DNA from: a virus
Reading direction: 5' to 3' (one strand)
IMG/VR virus record: IMGVR_UViG_3300013131_004463
Coordinates: 1-64,000 of that record
Length of the DNA: 64,000 nt
Part shown: one piece after another, positions 1 through 3,861 of the stretch
Position numbering within the stretch: position 1 is the first letter of the stretch
Layout of the letters: each line of letters begins with the position of its first letter
The notes under the pieces: generated by a model
Seen by the model: only the letters and a program-made list of their open reading frames with translations
Told to the model about the DNA's origin: nothing
Databases searched by the model: none
Made by a program: the position numbers and the translations under genes

Positions 1-2
1 AA

Positions 3-149
3 AAAACAAGAAGATCTTATCCATCAGAGAATATCTATTATTGGATTGCTAAAAATGGTTTTATAAATTCAAATAAAGAAGAAATATCAGATCATCTTAA
101 AGATTGGATTAAAGTATTAAGAACAATACATAATGAAGTTTGGTTTTGA
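3..149 (+). CDS. 3' end of a hypothetical protein, truncated by the window edge
   Basis: Open frame from nt 3 (KTRRSYPSEN...HNEVWF) to TGA at 147-149; converges on the next gene. Confidence 0.55.
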   Translation, partial: KTRRSYPSENIYYWIAKNGFINSNKEEISDHLKDWIKVLRTIHNEVWF

Positions 150-809
150 TTAATGTTCATAAAAATTAAAATACTCTTTCATCTCATCATAACACCAAGA
201 AATCATCAAGCTTTGTTTAGATTTTAAATTTTTAGTATAAACTTTATGAAAATATTCCATTTCCGTCAATGTCCATCTATATAAATTTGGCCAAATATCA
301 AAAAATATAGTATCAAATTTTTCTTTAAAATCTCTATGATAAGTAAAAGCATCCCCATGAAGAATAGTAACTTTATTATGGATATCTCTTTCTTTTATGT
401 ATGGTGATATTAATTCTATTAAATCTTTATCATATTCTATAATTTTTATAGATTTTATTGTTGGATCATTTAATAATGGAAATATTACCAGACCTAGACC
501 CAATCCAAAGTTTAAAATATCTCCATAAGCTTTATCTAAAAACTTTTTGCAAGATACAATTTCAAATGAAAGATTAGACATCATCGTTCCGTATTTTTTA
601 TGGATAAGAGCTACGCAATCTTTATCAATATCTTTTTCGTATTCTTTTTTATATATATGTCTTAATGGATATTCTTCGTTAAGTCCTGGCGCGTCTTTTG
701 GTACCTCAAAATCATAGTCTTCTTTTGTCCATCTAGCTTTAATTAATTTAAAATTTCTAGTCTCAGCGTTAGAGGTATATATTTTACTTATATCGATTAT
801 TTCTCTCAT
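150..809 (-). CDS. Class I SAM-dependent methyltransferase (spermidine-synthase-like fold)
   Basis: Motifs GDILNFGLGLG, IIEYD, GDAF and FDTIFFDIW. Confidence 0.75.
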   Translation of the reverse strand: MREIIDISKIYTSNAETRNFKLIKARWTKEDYDFEVPKDAPGLNEEYPLRHIYKKEYEKDIDKDCVALIHKKYGTMMSNLSFEIVSCKKFLDKAYGDILNFGLGLGLVIFPLLNDPTIKSIKIIEYDKDLIELISPYIKERDIHNKVTILHGDAFTYHRDFKEKFDTIFFDIWPNLYRWTLTEMEYFHKVYTKNLKSKQSLMISWCYDEMKEYFNFYEH

Positions 810-814
810 ATTAA

Positions 815-1124
815 CTTTTCTTTGATATCCAAAAGGGCTTTACCTTCATATTGTGTATTGTATGAAGTTTTTTTATATCAATCCAACTTTTCTTTTGACT
901 CCAAATTTATTGCAATTTCAGCAATAAATGGGCCATCGCACTTATGGATCAGAGGTAGCTTCGATCACTACATTCTGCGATGCCTATAGCTACATTCCCT
1001 TCATTAGCCATATTATGCACAAACGAAGGTTTTAATAGTCGTCAGCCCTTGGGACGTTGCTATCTCAAAGGATTGATAGTTGATTTTTTGACATCAACAA
1101 ACTGCTCTAATTGGAAGCTATGTT
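815..1124 (-). ncRNA. Candidate structured ncRNA or long 5' leader, family unrecognised
   Basis: ORF-free and GC-richer than flanks; at least 6 hairpins plus a 9-bp long-range helix (876-884 with 1070-1078); G-U pairs favour the minus strand; sigma70 promoter directly upstream. Confidence 0.6.
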
Positions 1125-1130
1125 AAGTAT

Positions 1131-1159
1131 ATAGTATTATTTTTTTATTTTTTTGTCAA
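1131..1159 (-). promoter_or_regulatory. Sigma70-type promoter
   Basis: TTGACA (1159-1154), 17-nt spacer, TACTAT (1136-1131). Confidence 0.75.
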
Positions 1160-1178
1160 ATTTTTTTATAATAAAGTA

Positions 1179-1388
1179 ATGGAAATAGTTAAAAATAAAG
1201 CAAGATGGTCGGTTTATGCTCAAAAATGTATACAGCATTATAATATTGATAATGATATTATTTCTGATGAACCAAATGAATATCCATGTATCGCCGTTCC
1301 TCAACTGATTTCGGATGTAAATGGAATAAGAATTAAATTTAATTTTGTTTATAAAAAAGATTGTCAAAGATTATTGAAAGCTTTATAA
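1179..1388 (+). CDS. Small hypothetical protein (69 aa)
   Basis: ORF with TATAAT just upstream of the ATG; no recognised motif. Confidence 0.6.
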   Translation: MEIVKNKARWSVYAQKCIQHYNIDNDIISDEPNEYPCIAVPQLISDVNGIRIKFNFVYKKDCQRLLKAL

Positions 1389-1418
1389 TGTGTAAGATAG
1401 AATAAGTTCTTTCTCATT

Positions 1419-1806
1419 GGGCCCGTACTGGTTTCGATTTTAGGAGTCGGAATTAAAATGCAGGTAGAGGTTTAGGTGGGACTCTTTAAAAAGCCTTAAA
1501 AGTATTAACTGCCAAAACAGCCAAATACAAAGGTCATATCTCTACTAGAGTTTCTCTAGTTGAGGAGACCACTTCTGTAGCCTAAGTTCTACAGCGTGAT
1601 TACCATGACGCATCTAATGGATAGTCGCGTATTTAGATGTCTTTGTCTTTAAAGTTTTTTTATTCTTTATTGGCTTTGTATTCAAAATAAAATCGCTGAG
1701 TATGTTTGTTGTTTATCTATATAAAGCTAAAAACAAAAACAACTAAACTTGTAGTATTTTAATTTAAATTCACTAAAAGACAAGAGTTCAATTCTCTTCG
1801 GGTCCA
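1419..1806 (+). ncRNA. ssrA: tmRNA (transfer-messenger RNA)
   Basis: 5' GGGCCCG-TACTGGTTTCGA; 3' GAC-AAGAG-TTCAATT-CTCTT-CGGGTCC-A (T arm plus acceptor stem with G3:U alanine determinant and discriminator A; CCA not encoded). Resume context TTAACT-GCC at 1511; tag ORF 1511-1585 reads AKTAKYKGHISTRVSLVEETTSVA*. Confidence 0.93.
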
Positions 1807-1872
1807 AGCAAACGAATCCCCCTGTCTGCATTTTTATTAGACAATCGTATGTATACTTCATACAATCTTTAC

Positions 1873-2427
1873 ATGAACATAAAAAAGATAAGAATAATTT
1901 GCGCTAATTGTAATAAAGAGCATGAAATAAGACAAGGTGACTTTAATAGAAAAATTAAAGCTGGTCAAAGTAAATTTTACTGCAGCCTAAAATGCTCTGG
2001 TAAAGCTGATTATAAAAATAATCCAAAAAAACTAGAAAAAAATAGAGGCAATATTAGCTTATTAAAAGGTTACGAAAGTAATAGGCTAGATGAATTTAGT
2101 CCTTTCAAATATCACGCGAACAAAGCAAGATCAAGAAGCAAGGCTAGAGGAGAAAAAACCAACCTAGACGTCCAATATTTAAAAGAAATTTGGGATAAAC
2201 AAAATGGAACTTGTCCATACACCAATATCAAAATGGAAATATCTAGGACAAGTCAAGATGAAGATATCAAAAAAGCTCCAACAAAAGCAAGCCTTGATAG
2301 AATTGATGCAAGTATAGGCTATGTTAAAGGTAATGTTGAGTTTGTATGTTATTGCATCAATGTAATGAAAAATGATTTTACAAAAGAACAGATGATAGAT
2401 TTTATAAATCAAATTAAAAATATTTAA
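1873..2427 (+). CDS. Free-standing HNH-type endonuclease with N-terminal Zn finger
   Basis: CANC...FYCSLKC finger; CPYT...SLDRID...GY..GNVEFVC..IN.MK core. Start moved from 1849 to 1873 because TAGACA-17-TACAAT (1838-1866) ends 6 nt before this ATG. Confidence 0.8.
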   Translation: MNIKKIRIICANCNKEHEIRQGDFNRKIKAGQSKFYCSLKCSGKADYKNNPKKLEKNRGNISLLKGYESNRLDEFSPFKYHANKARSRSKARGEKTNLDVQYLKEIWDKQNGTCPYTNIKMEISRTSQDEDIKKAPTKASLDRIDASIGYVKGNVEFVCYCINVMKNDFTKEQMIDFINQIKNI

Positions 2428-2452
2428 ATTTTAAACATTTATTTTTTTTTAA

Positions 2453-2458
2453 GTGTAA
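2453..2458 (+). promoter_or_regulatory. GTGTAA putative late-promoter element
   Basis: 8 nt upstream of ATG 2467; the same element precedes 8 other transcription units. Confidence 0.6.
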
Positions 2459-2466
2459 TACCAAGT

Positions 2467-3861
2467 ATGCCCAATAATCAAGGAAGCATAGGAAAAAATT
2501 TCGTCTTACCACCTGCGAAGGTAATACCACAATCCCCACAGAATAGTTACGCTGGAATGGGGCAAAGAGTCCTGAGAAGTTCCGAAAAATTGGGTTTTGG
2601 CGGGGGTGGGTACGAACTTGCAACTCCAGTTGTGATGCCATCCGCGCCAATAATTTCTCTTCTTTCAGTTGGAAATTCTCATATAGTTCTATCTGTAACT
2701 AATCATAATGCAAACGCAGCTAAATTACACTCTTATCAGGTCTATGTAAATAATGCTCTTTACGCAAATTTCGTAGCGAATTCAAATGAGATAAAAATTA
2801 CTGGCCTTCCTAATAATAGAGAGCATAGAATTAAAGTCAAGGCAGTAGGTGCAACCTATTCTGGTTCTGGAGCTGGAGCATCAATTACTAACTATGGCGA
2901 GACCGAGTTTAGCAACGAAGTATCAGGAACACCAACTATAGCATTAGCACCAAAATCAAGTCCATCAATGAATACTAACAAAATAGACGTCAAGTATGTT
3001 TCAAGCAATACATATGCAAATTCTTCTTTGGTTCCTACTTCGACATATTCAGAACTTTTCGAAGGAACGACTTATCCAACTAATCCTGTTTATTTTAAAA
3101 ACAATTTTTGCATTGGTAGCTTTAATGCAAACATTAAATTTAAAGCAAGAATGCAATATGGCGGAGCCGACAAACTTTACGCTGGTTCGATATTTGGTAT
3201 TTTTTCAGATGTAAATATAGACCTAAGCCCACTACCCTTTACCAGTCTTTTAAATTATGACGTGGCGGGGCAGGGGGTGGCTCTGCACAAAAAGTATGAT
3301 GATACATGGTATGGATTATGGAAGGCCGCTGGGTTCCCCGAAAATAGCCCGATCTTTGCTACCGCAGCGGGAGACTCTCAGCAAGGCCAGGATCATTTTG
3401 ATGTTGATATAGCTAGTCAATTAAGAAGAGAATTTATTCTTGCAAGGCCCTATATTGCTGAAAAACTTAGAAAATATATTAAAAATAATTTTAGTACTAT
3501 TCTTAGATCAGCAGATACAATGAGAGCTTATCTTGATGTAATTAATTTAAATACCCCAGGCATCACAACCTCATTTAAAGATTTTCTGCTTCCTTACGAA
3601 GGATTAGTTTTTATTACACCACATATTATTGCCTCAACTTTTCCAGTTGGAGTAAATCAAACCACTACTTTCTCTTACAAAATGGTAGATTCCAATAATG
3701 TAACTCAATTTACAAAAGAAAACGCTTCAACTTCAATAGTATTAGCTCCAACACAAACAGCTGATAGTTTTACTTTTCAAGAATTAAAAACAATACAAGA
3801 TGTAAGCGATATTTTTGGTCCAGCAACGGACGAGCTAGCGGAAGCAAATATAACAATCTAA
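2467..3861 (+). CDS. Fibronectin type III domain protein, probable virion decoration protein
   Basis: FN3 pattern PSAP...SYQVYVN...ITGLPNNREHRIKVKAVG...SNEVSGTP; GTGTAA upstream. Confidence 0.6.
   Translation: MPNNQGSIGKNFVLPPAKVIPQSPQNSYAGMGQRVLRSSEKLGFGGGGYELATPVVMPSAPIISLLSVGNSHIVLSVTNHNANAAKLHSYQVYVNNALYANFVANSNEIKITGLPNNREHRIKVKAVGATYSGSGAGASITNYGETEFSNEVSGTPTIALAPKSSPSMNTNKIDVKYVSSNTYANSSLVPTSTYSELFEGTTYPTNPVYFKNNFCIGSFNANIKFKARMQYGGADKLYAGSIFGIFSDVNIDLSPLPFTSLLNYDVAGQGVALHKKYDDTWYGLWKAAGFPENSPIFATAAGDSQQGQDHFDVDIASQLRREFILARPYIAEKLRKYIKNNFSTILRSADTMRAYLDVINLNTPGITTSFKDFLLPYEGLVFITPHIIASTFPVGVNQTTTFSYKMVDSNNVTQFTKENASTSIVLAPTQTADSFTFQELKTIQDVSDIFGPATDELAEANITI

What the first reader, a model, noticed from the sequence alone, without database searches (positions are those of the whole stretch)
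815..1159. Unassigned ~310-nt multi-branched RNA with its own sigma70 promoter, next to tmRNA
Seen: an ORF-free, GC-enriched stretch on the minus strand downstream of TTGACA-17-TACTAT. Helices (plus-strand coordinates) are 1079-1084/1093-1098; 1046-1055/1062-1071 (GCAA-containing loop); 998-1005/1022-1029; 934-940/976-982, enclosing GUAG/CUAC and two GAUC segments that could pseudoknot; 905-913/921-929 (UGAAA loop); and 844-850/861-867. A perfect 9-bp long-range helix (876-884/1070-1078) encloses most of them. Imperfect pairs are G-U only on the minus strand, which matches the promoter. I do not recognise it as RNase P, SRP, 6S, a group I intron or a known riboswitch. The other sigma70 promoters here sit a few nt from a start codon, so a 310-nt leader is anomalous. 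Inference: a novel phage ncRNA, or a cis-regulator or partner of the downstream SAM methyltransferase.
Basis: partly seen in the sequence, partly recalled or inferred. Interest (0 to 1): 0.75.

Follow-up and report, generated by a model that had tools for sequence, protein, structure and literature searches.

The report
New knotted twin-box phage RNA gene
The gene-free stretch beside this uncultured lake phage's tmRNA is a separately transcribed gene for a 311-base, doubly knotted non-coding RNA of no catalogued family; it carries two exposed sequence boxes that differ between related phages yet are always identical within one RNA, and its job is still unknown.

Summary
Window 813-1123 (minus strand) is a 311-nt structured RNA gene behind a TTGACA-17-TAnnnT promoter that 89 of 90 copies keep. 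Across 92 distinct copies from lake phage contigs, 94.7% of cells pair, against 34-49% in slid controls, and 48 of 68 pairs show compensatory change. Helix 1046-1055/1062-1071 is wrong: a 4-bp hairpin sits there, and its loop forms a long-range pseudoknot. A second pseudoknot is also supported. No Rfam family matches.

The methyltransferase link fails. Only 3 of 86 copies have that gene downstream, 70 have none, and one relative keeps only its wreck.

- The covariance model also finds diverged siblings upstream of nrdA in sister phages.
- Across this superfamily the two single-stranded boxes occur in about 10 versions, such as AAAGAAAAGU, AUUGGGAAGU and AGGGAAAAAGUUU.
- Both boxes are identical within every RNA examined.

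That pattern points to one co-evolving partner with two equivalent binding sites. I found no such partner. Function remains unknown.

This scan has reported the same family before on other DNA (e1-5893685, e1-5728418, e1-5908578, e1-5964537).

The parts
1154..1159 (-). -35 box TTGACA of the RNA gene's promoter
   Evidence: Exact TTGACA in 89 of 90 homologues.
1131..1136 (-). -10 box TACTAT, 17 nt from the -35 box
   Evidence: A TAnnnT box at an exact 17-nt spacing in 89 of 90 copies, with a variable spacer sequence. It lies 7-11 nt before the conserved ACAUAG start.
813..1123 (-). The 311-nt structured non-coding RNA (conserved block ACAUAG...AAAGAAAAGUU)
   Evidence: Covariance model R1 matches 813-1123 at 347 bits. 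Homology to other phages begins and ends here. On 92 distinct copies 94.7% of cells are paired and 48 of 68 pairs show changes on both sides.
1104..1118 (-). H1 hairpin (GCUU/GAGC, 7-nt loop)
   Evidence: 99.7% paired; 3 of 4 pairs have compensatory changes.
1079..1098 (-). H2 hairpin (GUUGAU/AUCAAC)
Evidence: It is 88% paired in the model alignment, and each clade forms a hairpin here from a different sequence.
1070..1078 (-). H3 long-range helix, 5' strand (UAUCAAUCC)
   Evidence: It pairs with 876-884. In other clades the pairing is replaced by UUUAGUAUAUAGUUCC/GGGACUAUAUACUAGA or by UUUAGUC.UUUGUCU/AGACAAAAGACUAAA. The five core pairs are 96.7% paired, and all five have compensatory changes.
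876..884 (-). H3 long-range helix, 3' strand (GGAUUGAUA)
   Evidence: As for the 5' strand.
1040..1056 (-). H5 hairpin (CGUC/GACG); its loop carries the 5' strand of pseudoknot PK1 (AAGGGCU, 1044-1050)
   Evidence: The closing pair is C-G in 49 copies and U-A in 43, and the third pair is U-A in 77 and C-G in 15.
833..839 (-). Pseudoknot PK1, 3' strand (AGCCCUU), pairing with 1044-1050
   Evidence: 99.7% paired; 4 of 7 pairs have compensatory changes. PK1 was not part of model R1. Sister lineages carry CGGAGCU/AGCUCCG, CGAAGCU/AGCUUCG, CAAAGCU/AGCUUUG and GCAAGCU/AGCUUGC at the same place.
998..1029 (-). H6 hairpin (CCUUCGUU/AAUGAAGG) with a conserved ~16-nt loop
   Evidence: 92% paired; 4 of 5 pairs have compensatory changes.
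988..993 (-). Pseudoknot PK2, 5' strand (GUAGCU), pairing with AGCUAC at 955-960
   Evidence: 97.3% paired, with A-U changing to G-C and C-G changing to G-C or A-U. It crosses helices b, m and c, and it was not part of model R1.
934..982 (-). Interrupted stem b/m/c (CAUCGC/GCGAUG, AUG/CAU, GAUC/GAUC); its loop holds the 3' strand of PK2 (955-960)
   Evidence: 97-98% paired; helices b and c each have 3 pairs with compensatory changes. Coordinates are; m 3' lies at 944-946.
905..929 (-). H11 hairpin (AUUUAUUGC/GCAAUAAAU)
   Evidence: All 9 pairs have compensatory changes. In clade 2 and the sister lineages it is a GNRA-capped hairpin.
886..902 (-). Twin box 1: GGAGUC-A-AAAGAAAAGU, single-stranded, between H11 and the H3 3' strand
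   Evidence: Invariant apart from one Y position, which always matches box 2 (72 C/C, 20 U/U, 0 mixed). In sister lineages it is replaced by other box sequences that are again identical to their own box 2.
844..867 (-). H12 hairpin (CUUCAUA/UAUGAAG)
   Evidence: 90% paired; 5 of 7 pairs have compensatory changes.
814..830 (-). Twin box 2: GGAUAUC-AAAGAAAAGU, the single-stranded 3' tail; conservation ends at 813
   Evidence: In the window the inserted methyltransferase's ATG (809-807) follows 4 nt later.
150..809 (-). Methyltransferase-like ORF (219 aa). It is not part of the RNA; it is an accessory gene inserted behind it in a few phages
   Evidence: PF01564 at E 1e-07 and phrog_15480 at 7e-18. 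It is present in 3 of 86 copies and is a decayed remnant in L002.
1419..1807 (+). Phage tmRNA, a frequent neighbour transcribed divergently from the RNA
   Evidence: RF00023 at 102 bits; ARAGORN. It is adjacent in clades 1 and 2 and 6-16 kb away in clade 3.

Best explanation
Window 813-1123 (minus strand) is a stand-alone gene for a 311-nt non-coding RNA of an uncatalogued family.

Shown:
- The gene has its own conserved sigma70-type promoter.
- The fold is compact. Hairpins H1 and H2 come first. A 9-16-bp long-range helix (H3) then closes a multi-branched domain containing H5, H6, the b/m/c stem and H11, and hairpin H12 follows. Two pseudoknots lock the fold: the H5 loop pairs with a 3' segment (PK1), and a 5' segment pairs with the loop of stem b/m/c (PK2).
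- Two single-stranded elements lie outside all helices. These 'twin boxes' are UCA-A-AAAGAAAAGU after H11 and UCA-AAAGAAAAGU at the 3' end.
- Diverged homologues sit upstream of nrdA in sister phages. Across this wider superfamily the box sequence drifts into about 10 versions, but the two boxes within one RNA are always identical.

Inferred:
- The knotted core is a rigid scaffold that displays the two boxes.
- The boxes are the specificity elements. They are read by one partner that has two equivalent binding sites or binds as two copies, most likely a protein dimer and otherwise a nucleic acid.
- That partner co-evolves with the RNA, and the RNA acts in trans early in infection.
- It is not a leader of the methyltransferase or of nrdA.

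What the partner is, and what binding achieves, is not known.
For: Real, structured and on this strand:
- On 92 distinct copies and 68 pairs, 94.7% of cells are paired, against 34-49% when partners are slid by 1-3 columns.
- 48 pairs change on both sides, against 15-20 in the slid controls, and 0 of 500 shuffles reach the observed values (on the MAFFT alignment).
- Both pseudoknots were left out of model R1, yet they are 97-99.7% paired with compensatory changes. PK1 also covaries in the sister lineages.
- G-U pairs fit only this strand.

Own gene:
- TTGACA-17-TAnnnT is kept in 89 of 90 copies.
- Homology starts at ACAUAG and stops at AAAGAAAAGUU.
- There is one copy per genome, including the complete 172-kb genome G001.
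- In G001 it is the only plus-strand gene inside a 50-kb block of minus-strand genes.

Not a leader: 70 of 86 copies have no same-strand ORF within 250 nt downstream.

Present in RNA libraries: metatranscriptome contigs from two studies cover 811-1112 as well as the tmRNA. This is weak support, because contigs cannot show ends or strand.

Twin boxes:
- Within the family the single variable position is C/C in 72 copies and U/U in 20, never mixed, across 2-3 independent changes on the tree.
- Across the superfamily the boxes read AAAGAAAAGU, AUUGGGAAGU, AUUGGGAAAAU, AUUGGGAAAU(A), AUUGGGAAUUU, AUUGGGAAGA, AUUGGAAAGUA, ACUGGGAAGU or AGGGAAAAAGUUU. They are identical in both boxes of every RNA examined, and box 1 always carries one extra A.
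- The sequences flanking the boxes differ, so identity is confined to 12-16 nt.

Superfamily: R1 finds the nrdA-upstream RNAs at E 1e-7 to 1e-18 with the same architecture.
Against: - No partner was found.
- No complement of the box exists inside the RNA.
- The complete genome G001 holds one antisense site, against 1.0 expected by chance, and that site is not conserved in the window's phage.
- The phage tmRNA offers no cognate-specific pairing.
- The three phage records searched (G000 53% complete, G001 100% complete, G002 87% complete) encode no Hfq, CsrA or SmpB, and the neighbouring proteins have no Pfam domain.
- Identity of two short direct repeats could in principle be kept by gene conversion, or could act at the DNA level.
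- The mature ends, the strand and the abundance of the transcript have not been measured.
- RNA-library contigs run past the conserved 3' end.
- In 11 of 86 family copies (clade 3), and in the sister-lineage RNAs examined, nrdA follows 120-150 nt downstream. A cis effect on nrdAB in those phages is therefore not excluded.
Confidence: 0.55

Rival explanations
1. Origin or primer RNA. The promoter-driven transcript forms an R-loop and primes DNA replication, as ColE1 RNA II or the T4 oriF/oriG transcripts do. On this reading the twin boxes act at the DNA level as iteron-like binding sites for a phage initiator, which would explain why they drift between phages while staying identical within one genome.
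For: - Iterons and their initiator are the textbook case of repeats that stay identical within a replicon and differ between relatives (established knowledge of lambdoid O protein and its iterons).
- The locus sits beside the nucleotide-metabolism (nrdAB) module, has a strong constitutive-type promoter and no visible terminator.
- The window's boxes are polypurine tracts.
- Earlier scan notes on the sister RNAs raised the same analogy.
Against: - In the complete genome G001 the RNA is not at a GC-skew turning point. The extremes lie near 29 kb and 80 kb, and the RNA is at 71 kb.
- Box spacing varies from 66 to 75 bp, so there is no fixed helical phase.
- There are only two copies, and they always fall in the unpaired regions of an RNA fold supported by 48 covarying pairs. 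A primer would not need such a fold.
- Box 1 carries a conserved extra A.
Confidence: 0.12
2. Cis-acting leader or riboswitch. The RNA senses a ligand or protein and controls the gene transcribed behind it: the methyltransferase in this window and nrdAB in other phages.
For: - In the window the methyltransferase ATG lies 4 nt behind box 2, with no intervening terminator or strong promoter.
- In clade 3, and in the sister-lineage RNAs examined, nrdA follows 120-150 nt downstream on the same strand.
Against: - 70 of 86 copies have no downstream same-strand gene and instead run head-on into a convergent gene.
- The methyltransferase is present in 3 of 86 copies and is decayed in L002, while the RNA stays intact.
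- No Rfam riboswitch class matches the window, including at a permissive E-value threshold over 700-1300.
- Conservation ends before any expression platform, and the 120-150-nt spacer before nrdA has its own conserved motifs.
Confidence: 0.07
3. RNA-only assembly or ribozyme. Like ROOL, GOLLD and OLE, the RNA works as a homo-oligomeric architecture, or it is a self-processing ribozyme with the boxes as cleavage or ligation sites that define two identical 3' ends.
For: - Large ornate phage-associated RNAs form RNA-only homo-oligomers (PMC12286853).
- The fold is complex for its size, with two pseudoknots.
- A 6-nt palindrome directly precedes box 2 in most lineages (GAUAUC here, GAGCUC or AGAUCU elsewhere), which could pair between molecules.
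- Conservation ends exactly at the end of box 2.
Against: - There is no similarity to any Rfam ribozyme, ROOL or GOLLD model.
- At 311 nt it is much smaller than ROOL (~580 nt) or GOLLD (~800 nt).
- The palindrome is absent in the L262 and L314 lineage. Given the fixed GA..UC flanks it has a 1-in-4 chance of arising, so this is only a lead.
- Oligomerisation or self-cleavage does not by itself explain why two non-complementary boxes must be identical.
Confidence: 0.12
4. RNA-RNA specificity device of the phage-immunity type. As with seqA and seqC of phage P4 or a1/a2 and b1/b2 of P1/P7, the twin boxes would be two target sites for one complementary RNA encoded elsewhere. Alternatively they would be two guides for one repeated target in host or rival-phage RNA, setting lineage-specific (hetero-immune or host-specific) control.
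For: - The RNA behaves as an exchangeable allele. NrdA of L262 is 96% identical to that of clade-3 L056, yet L262's RNA scores only 60 bits against R1 and carries a different box.
- Box versions differ between otherwise close phages.
- Twin identical sites that co-vary with one complementary sequence are how P4 CI and P1 c4 immunity work (established knowledge).
Against: - No complementary sequence was found in the RNA or in the complete genome G001 beyond chance.
- None was found in the partial genomes of the sister lineage, and none in the tmRNA.
- The candidate sites in two genomes are not homologous.
- Host RNAs could not be searched because the host is unknown.
Confidence: 0.12

Closest known systems
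ROOL (RF03087) and GOLLD (RF01998): large ornate non-coding RNAs of phages and prophages
   Same: Phage-borne, promoter-driven and pseudoknot-rich. Usually found among RNA genes (tRNAs there, tmRNA here). Not tied to one protein gene, and of unknown function.
   Different: No sequence or model similarity. This RNA is about half to a third of their size. It is restricted to one group of lake phages and absent from the cellular genomes searched by pattern. Twin co-evolving boxes are not a described feature of ROOL or GOLLD.
Phage P4 CI RNA with seqA/seqC, and P1/P7 c4 RNA with a1/a2 and b1/b2 (RNA-based immunity)
   Same: Short direct repeats in one transcript that stay identical to each other and differ between related phages, lying around a structured RNA.
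   Different: Those systems contain a complementary element (seqB, or a' and b') in the same locus. None exists here. Those RNAs are about 70-80 nt and lack a double-pseudoknotted core. The comparison rests on recalled knowledge and is not a model-based test.
Lambda-type nutL/nutR boxB sites read by N protein
   Same: Two RNA sites per genome that are identical within a phage and diverge between relatives together with their protein reader. This is the best precedent for 'one partner, two identical RNA sites'.
   Different: nut sites are small hairpins in two different operons. Here both sites are single-stranded and sit 66-75 nt apart in one folded RNA. No N-like protein was identified.
ColE1 RNA II and T4 oriF/oriG origin transcripts
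   Same: A promoter-driven, structured, untranslated transcript without an obvious terminator, lying in a replication and nucleotide-metabolism neighbourhood.
   Different: There is no skew or strand-switch signature of an origin at the locus in the complete genome. The degree of compensatory change across two pseudoknots points to a function of the folded RNA itself.
tmRNA (RF00023), the neighbouring gene
   Same: Similar size and G+C content, several pseudoknots, a long-range helix enclosing them, and co-occurrence in all 7 genomes tested.
   Different: It has no tRNA-like domain, no tag reading frame and no Rfam tmRNA score. The true tmRNA is complete and lies next door.

Membership tests
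Any Rfam 15 family (4227 models, including RNase P, 6S, SRP, group I/II introns, HEARO, ROOL, GOLLD, raiA, OLE and all riboswitch classes) | Score at or above the family's gathering threshold, or at least a consistent sub-threshold match | tested here: not met
   The only hit in the window is tmRNA at 1419-1807. In 700-1300 at E<=10 the only match is a chance miRNA hit in the A/T-rich promoter region. Nothing was found in clade 1, 2 and 3 representatives or in the sister-lineage RNA.
SAM or other riboswitch / cis-regulatory leader | Consistent position in the 5' UTR of the regulated gene | tested here: not met
   70 of 86 copies have no same-strand ORF within 250 nt; 3 of 86 have the methyltransferase and 11 of 86 have nrdA.
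SAM or other riboswitch / cis-regulatory leader | An expression platform (terminator or SD-sequestering helix) coupled to the aptamer | tested here: not met
   No intrinsic terminator was found in 1-3000. Conservation ends at box 2 and the downstream sequence is unrelated between loci.
ROOL / GOLLD ornate RNAs | Match to the family covariance model | tested here: not met
ROOL / GOLLD ornate RNAs | Homo-oligomeric RNA-only cage | not testable with these tools
   This needs native gels or cryo-EM. The only sequence lead is a 6-nt palindrome before box 2.
RNase P RNA | P4 pseudoknot built from conserved regions CR-I and CR-V, and a match to RF00010/RF00011 | tested here: not met
   No Rfam score. 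The conserved single-stranded motifs (GAGAUAGCAACG, ACUAUUAAAAC, AUAAGUGC) are not the RNase P signatures; that comparison is from recalled consensus and is only a lead.
P4 CI / P1 c4-type immunity RNA | A sequence complementary to the twin repeats in the same RNA or locus | tested here: not met
   No complement was found in the RNA. G001 holds one antisense 10-mer against 1.0 expected, and it is not conserved. In the L262 lineage the H1 loop (CCCAAUU) could pair with the box, but the same loop occurs with non-matching boxes in other lineages.
Type III antitoxin (ToxI-like) RNA | Tandem repeats of a whole ~34-36-nt unit next to an endoribonuclease toxin gene | tested here: not met
   Only 12-16 nt are repeated and the 50-60 nt between them are unique. 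No adjacent toxin-like gene was found; the neighbours are an HNH endonuclease, a 69-aa ORF and ORFs without domains.
Replication-origin primer RNA (ColE1 RNA II-like) | Location at the replication origin | tested here: inconclusive
   In G001 the locus is not at a cumulative GC-skew extreme. However, skew in this genome follows the direction of transcription, and phages of this size may use several origins.
Twin-box RNA superfamily of lake phages (defined in this scan, not published) | Conserved architecture (H3, H5 with PK1, PK2 over stem b/c, H11, H12) plus two identical UCA(A)-box elements 66-75 nt apart | tested here: met
   The window RNA is the query. R1 detects the nrdA-upstream siblings at E 1e-7 to 1e-18, with aligned helices and twin boxes in every member.

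The most novel reading that the evidence does not exclude
The twin boxes are a programmable specificity code. On this reading, a new class of phage RNA uses a constant knotted scaffold to present two copies of a short, freely evolvable 'address' sequence. That address recognises a repeated or dimeric target in the host, in a rival phage or in the phage's own machinery. Different box alleles would then define functionally incompatible lineages, as immunity or host-specificity types do. The finding that near-identical phages (NrdA 96% identical) carry different RNA alleles fits such an arms-race or specificity role.
Probability: 0.2. Interest if true: 0.9.

Novelty: categorically new. Interest (0 to 1): 0.78.

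Why it matters
Few large, intricately folded bacterial or phage RNAs are known, and each one found (RNase P, tmRNA, riboswitches, OLE, ROOL, GOLLD) has opened new biology.

This RNA is a compact 311-nt fold with two pseudoknots. It is backed by unusually clean covariation, it is expressed from a host-type early promoter, and it has been seen only in one group of abundant freshwater phages.

Its twin boxes give a concrete experimental handle that most orphan RNAs lack. Two exposed 12-16-nt elements have been rewritten about ten times in evolution, always in step. This predicts a single co-evolving partner with two equivalent sites. The partner can be sought by pull-down, by box-swap genetics, or by association across genomes.

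They form one superfamily that behaves as an exchangeable allele. For annotation, it removes a false regulatory link to the methyltransferase.

Tried and rejected
- **Rfam.** The whole window at gathering score, 700-1300 at E<=10, three other family members and one sister RNA gave nothing but tmRNA.
- **INPHARED phage genomes.** blastn in distant mode with 780-1180 found no match.
- **Cellular genomes.** Two pattern scans of 185,579 species representatives gave 0 hits and 4 hits. The covariance model rejects all 4. This covers pattern-level sensitivity only.
- **Pattern hits elsewhere.** Five pattern hits in IMG/VR (L008, L009, L013, L024, L026) and the G+C-rich hits are chance or coding sequence.
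Rejected.
- **Box target inside the phage.** The complement ACTTTTCTTTKA is at chance level in the window. No consistent site occurs within 7 kb in 60 loci. G001 has one antisense 10-mer against 1.0 expected, and the G001 and window candidates are not homologous.
- **Box pairing with the phage tmRNA.** Cognate duplexes are no better than non-cognate ones, and their positions are inconsistent.
- **Box as the usual ribosome-binding site.** Motifs enriched upstream of genes are GTGTAA, AGGAG/AAGGA and TATAAT, not AAAGAAA or GAAAAG.
- **Phage-encoded Hfq, CsrA or SmpB.** None in G000, G001 or G002.
- **Pfam on five neighbouring proteins.** No domain found.
- **Origin of replication.** There is no skew turning point at the locus.
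- **Sequencing runs.** Parts of the window without cover in the RNA libraries (for example 1192-1396) cannot be used as evidence.
- **Published catalogue.** The 2023 catalogue of about 10,000 candidate viral structured RNAs (PMC10690425) could not be checked for this RNA, because no supplementary files are held.
- **Codon reading of the boxes.** GGG/GGA and AAG/AAA changes look synonymous in one frame. I dropped this idea: there are too few events, no start codon, and box 1 is shifted by the extra A.
Full report
**1. What is in the window**

The window is the first 64 kb of a 79-kb IMG/VR virus record that is about 53% complete. Between the methyltransferase-like ORF (150-809, minus strand) and a small plus-strand ORF (1179-1388) lies a stretch with no ORF of 30 aa or more on the minus strand. 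At 901-1100 it has 39.5% G+C, against 23-29% in the flanks. That matches the G+C of the tmRNA gene at 1419-1807.

TTGACA (1154-1159) and TACTAT (1131-1136) lie 17 nt apart on the minus strand. Taken alone this proves nothing, because promoter-like sites are not enriched in the region (20 found, 16 +/- 4 expected). Folding one sequence gives z = -2.9 on either strand. Rfam 15 finds only the tmRNA, and nothing in 700-1300 even at E<=10.

**2. Homologues**

The methyltransferase brought in one related contig, L002. There the methyltransferase is a wreck (ATG changed to ATA plus an internal deletion). The stretch upstream of it is kept at about 68% identity, with visible compensatory changes.

Pattern scans built from invariant motifs then gave about 65 IMG/VR contigs and about 80 JGI lake or freshwater metagenome contigs. 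After removing duplicates there are 92 distinct full-length copies in three clades. Two pattern scans of one genome from each of 185,579 prokaryote species gave no true hit. INPHARED phage genomes gave none either.

Homology begins at the promoter and ends exactly at ...GGAUAUYAAAGAAAAGU(U). Beyond that point the loci are unrelated. There is one copy per genome, including the complete 172-kb genome G001.

**3. Promoter and strand**

89 of 90 copies have an exact TTGACA, an exact 17-nt spacer of variable sequence and a TAnnnT box. These lie 7-11 nt before the conserved ACAUAG.

Many pairs are G-U in most copies, which fits only the minus strand of the window. In G001 the RNA is the only plus-strand gene within a 50-kb block of minus-strand genes.

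Metatranscriptome contigs from two studies (2017 and 2025) cover 811-1112 and the tmRNA. Contigs cannot give ends, strand or level, so this is only weak support for transcription.

**4. Structure**

I wrote the structure by hand from the three clades and tested it on a MAFFT alignment of 49 copies. There, 92.2% of cells pair, against 33-50% for slid partners. 39 pairs change on both sides, against 10-17 in the slid controls, and 0 of 500 shuffles reach the observed values.

I then built covariance model R1 from the nested part only and used it to align all 92 copies. On that alignment 94.7% of cells pair, against 34-49% slid. 48 of 68 pairs change on both sides, against 15-20, and again 0 of 500 shuffles reach the observed values.

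The two pseudoknots were not in the model, so they are the least biased part of the test:
- PK1 (1044-1050 with 833-839) is 99.7% paired, with 4 of 7 pairs compensated.
- PK2 (988-993 with 955-960) is 97.3% paired.

Window coordinates of all elements are given.

It shows mismatches instead of compensation and is replaced by hairpin H5 plus PK1. The GAUC/GAUC pairing is real but nested.

**5. Not a methyltransferase leader**

The 86 distinct copies with at least 350 nt of downstream sequence divide as follows:
- 70 have no same-strand ORF within 250 nt. They run into the 3' end of a convergent 171-aa gene at the tail of the nrdA-nrdB operon.
- 11 (clade 3) have nrdA 120-146 nt downstream.
- 3 (the window, L075 and L171) have the methyltransferase at +4 to +7.
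- 2 have other genes.

So the methyltransferase (PF01564-like, phrog_15480) is an accessory gene dropped in behind the RNA. It probably exploits read-through transcription and uses box 2 as its upstream region.

The tmRNA is adjacent in clades 1 and 2, but it lies 6.6, 10 and 16 kb away in clade-3 genomes. All 7 genomes tested carry both RNAs.

**6. The twin boxes within the family**

Two stretches lie outside every helix: GGAGUY-A-AAAGAAAAGU (886-902) and GGAUAUY-AAAGAAAAGU (814-830). They are invariant in the family except for Y. Y is C in both boxes (72 copies) or U in both (20 copies) and is never mixed. On a tree built without those columns this needs 3 changes, of which 2 are forced by well-supported branches. 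That is too few for a significance test on its own.

Earlier notes of this scan describe ~285-nt 'twin-box' RNAs before nrdA in lake phages. To follow that lead I fetched 80 loci encoding relatives of the clade-3 NrdA. R1 finds a 280-296-nt RNA 120-150 nt upstream of nrdA in 12 of them, at E 1e-7 to 1e-18. They share these features:
- the same ACAUA start and a TTGACA promoter;
- GCAACG-H5-CGAC;
- GUGUAGGU...CCUAC (PK2) over a b/c stem;
- a GNRA-capped H11;
- the long-range H3 and hairpin H12.

PK1 covaries further in these RNAs: CGGAGCU/AGCUCCG, CGAAGCU/AGCUUCG, CAAAGCU/AGCUUUG and GCAAGCU/AGCUUGC. No Rfam family matches these siblings either.

A further pattern scan raised the sister lineages to about 29 IMG/VR contigs.

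In every one of these RNAs two boxes sit at the same two places, 66-75 nt apart. Box 1 has the form UCA-A-box and box 2 the form UCA-box. The box sequence itself differs between lineages:
- AUUGGGAAGU
- AUUGGGAAGUU
- AUUGGGAAAAU
- AUUGGGAAAU(A)
- AUUGGGAAUUU
- AUUGGGAAGA
- AUUGGAAAGUA
- ACUGGGAAGU
- AGGGAAAAAGUUU

Both copies within one RNA are always the same. Together with the window family's two versions, that makes about 10 haplotypes. By my count from those lists, at least nine substitution or indel events are each mirrored in both boxes. The immediate flanks of the boxes stay different.

The RNA also behaves as an exchangeable allele. L262's NrdA is 96% identical to that of clade-3 L056, yet L262's RNA scores only 60 bits against R1 and carries another box.

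**8. What the boxes could bind**

Every direct test came back negative:
- There is no complement inside the RNA. The H1 loop CCCAAUU could pair with AAUUGGG in one lineage, but the same loop co-occurs with non-matching boxes elsewhere.
- There is no excess of complementary sites in the window, in 60 loci or in the complete genome G001. The two best candidate sites are not homologous.
- There is no cognate-specific pairing with the phage tmRNA.
- The boxes do not resemble the phage's usual ribosome-binding sites.
- The three phage records searched encode no Hfq, CsrA or SmpB, and the neighbouring proteins have no known domain.
- GC skew does not mark the locus as an origin.

**9. Reading**

What is shown:
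- This is a real, stand-alone RNA gene with its own promoter and a double-pseudoknotted fold.
- It belongs to a superfamily confined, as far as these searches reach, to a group of freshwater phages.
- Two exposed boxes evolve in concert.

What is inferred: the fold is a scaffold, and the boxes are the specificity elements for one co-evolving partner with two equivalent sites. The closest precedents for such concerted evolution are all from established knowledge: nutL/nutR with N protein, iterons with their initiator, and seqA/seqC with P4 CI RNA. None of them fits as a family here (see the membership tests).

I put 0.55 on this reading as a whole. About 0.95 of that is for 'real stand-alone structured RNA'. 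The kind of partner is left open. The rivals are an origin or primer RNA with DNA-level iterons (0.12), an RNA-only assembly or ribozyme (0.12), an RNA-RNA immunity-like device (0.12) and a cis leader (0.07).

**10. Novelty and earlier scan notes**

No Rfam family and no paper found in three full-text searches describes this RNA. A 2023 catalogue of candidate viral structured RNAs could not be checked.

This scan has met the same family before on other genomes and reached the same basic verdict (e1-5893685, e1-5728418, e1-5728431, e1-5908578, e1-6076517; e1-5964537). I re-derived those claims independently here.

- the model-based link to the nrdA-upstream twin-box RNAs;
- the catalogue of box haplotypes;
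- the negative tests for a partner.

Noticed in passing
window 150-809 (-); L002 1067-1412: The methyltransferase-like gene behind the RNA is an accessory insertion found in only 3 of 86 copies. In L002/L019 its first ~100 nt are ~99% identical to the window, but the ATG is ATA and about 450 nt are deleted, which suggests recent decay. Two other phages (L044, L145) carry different genes at the same spot, so the 3' end of the RNA gene looks like a hot spot for gene insertion.
   Followed up: partly
window 1419-1807 (+) and tmRNAs of L003-L145: The phage tmRNA is one-piece and encodes an unusually long 24-residue tag: AKTAKYKGHIS[T/A]RVSLVE.T.SVA in clades 1 and 3, and AK.AKLKGSFSLRVSH....LIAA in clade 2. 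No smpB is present in the three phage records searched (53%, 100% and 87% complete).
   Followed up: partly
G001 (complete 172-kb relative), upstream of predicted genes: GTGTA/TGTAA (GTGTAA) is enriched about 24-fold in the 20 nt before start codons, alongside AGGAG-type Shine-Dalgarno motifs and TATAAT boxes. It is probably a phage-specific (middle or late) promoter or leader motif.
   Followed up: no
window 1849-2427 (+): A 192-aa HNH / endonuclease VII-like protein (phrog_3322, 1.6e-24) sits directly after the tmRNA. It is a probable homing-type nuclease at the RNA gene island.
   Followed up: no
L056 1604-1744, L262 2369-2501 and equivalents: The 120-150-nt spacer between the RNA and nrdA carries its own conserved words in all lineages: GUACAC(U)U about 40-60 nt after box 2, followed by a U-rich run and AAGGA. 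This is probably nrdA's own promoter or leader.
   Followed up: no
L262 vs L056 (nrdA loci): Phages whose NrdA proteins are 96% identical carry very different alleles of the upstream RNA (60 bits versus 247 bits against R1, 44% versus 38% G+C, different boxes). The RNA locus is therefore exchanged by recombination independently of its neighbours.
   Followed up: partly
window 1179-1388 (+): A 69-aa ORF without any family match lies between the RNA promoter and the tmRNA in most clade 1 and 2 loci, with a 71-aa homologue in L002. It is absent in L059, L012/L020 and clade 3, so it is not an obligatory partner of the RNA.
   Followed up: partly
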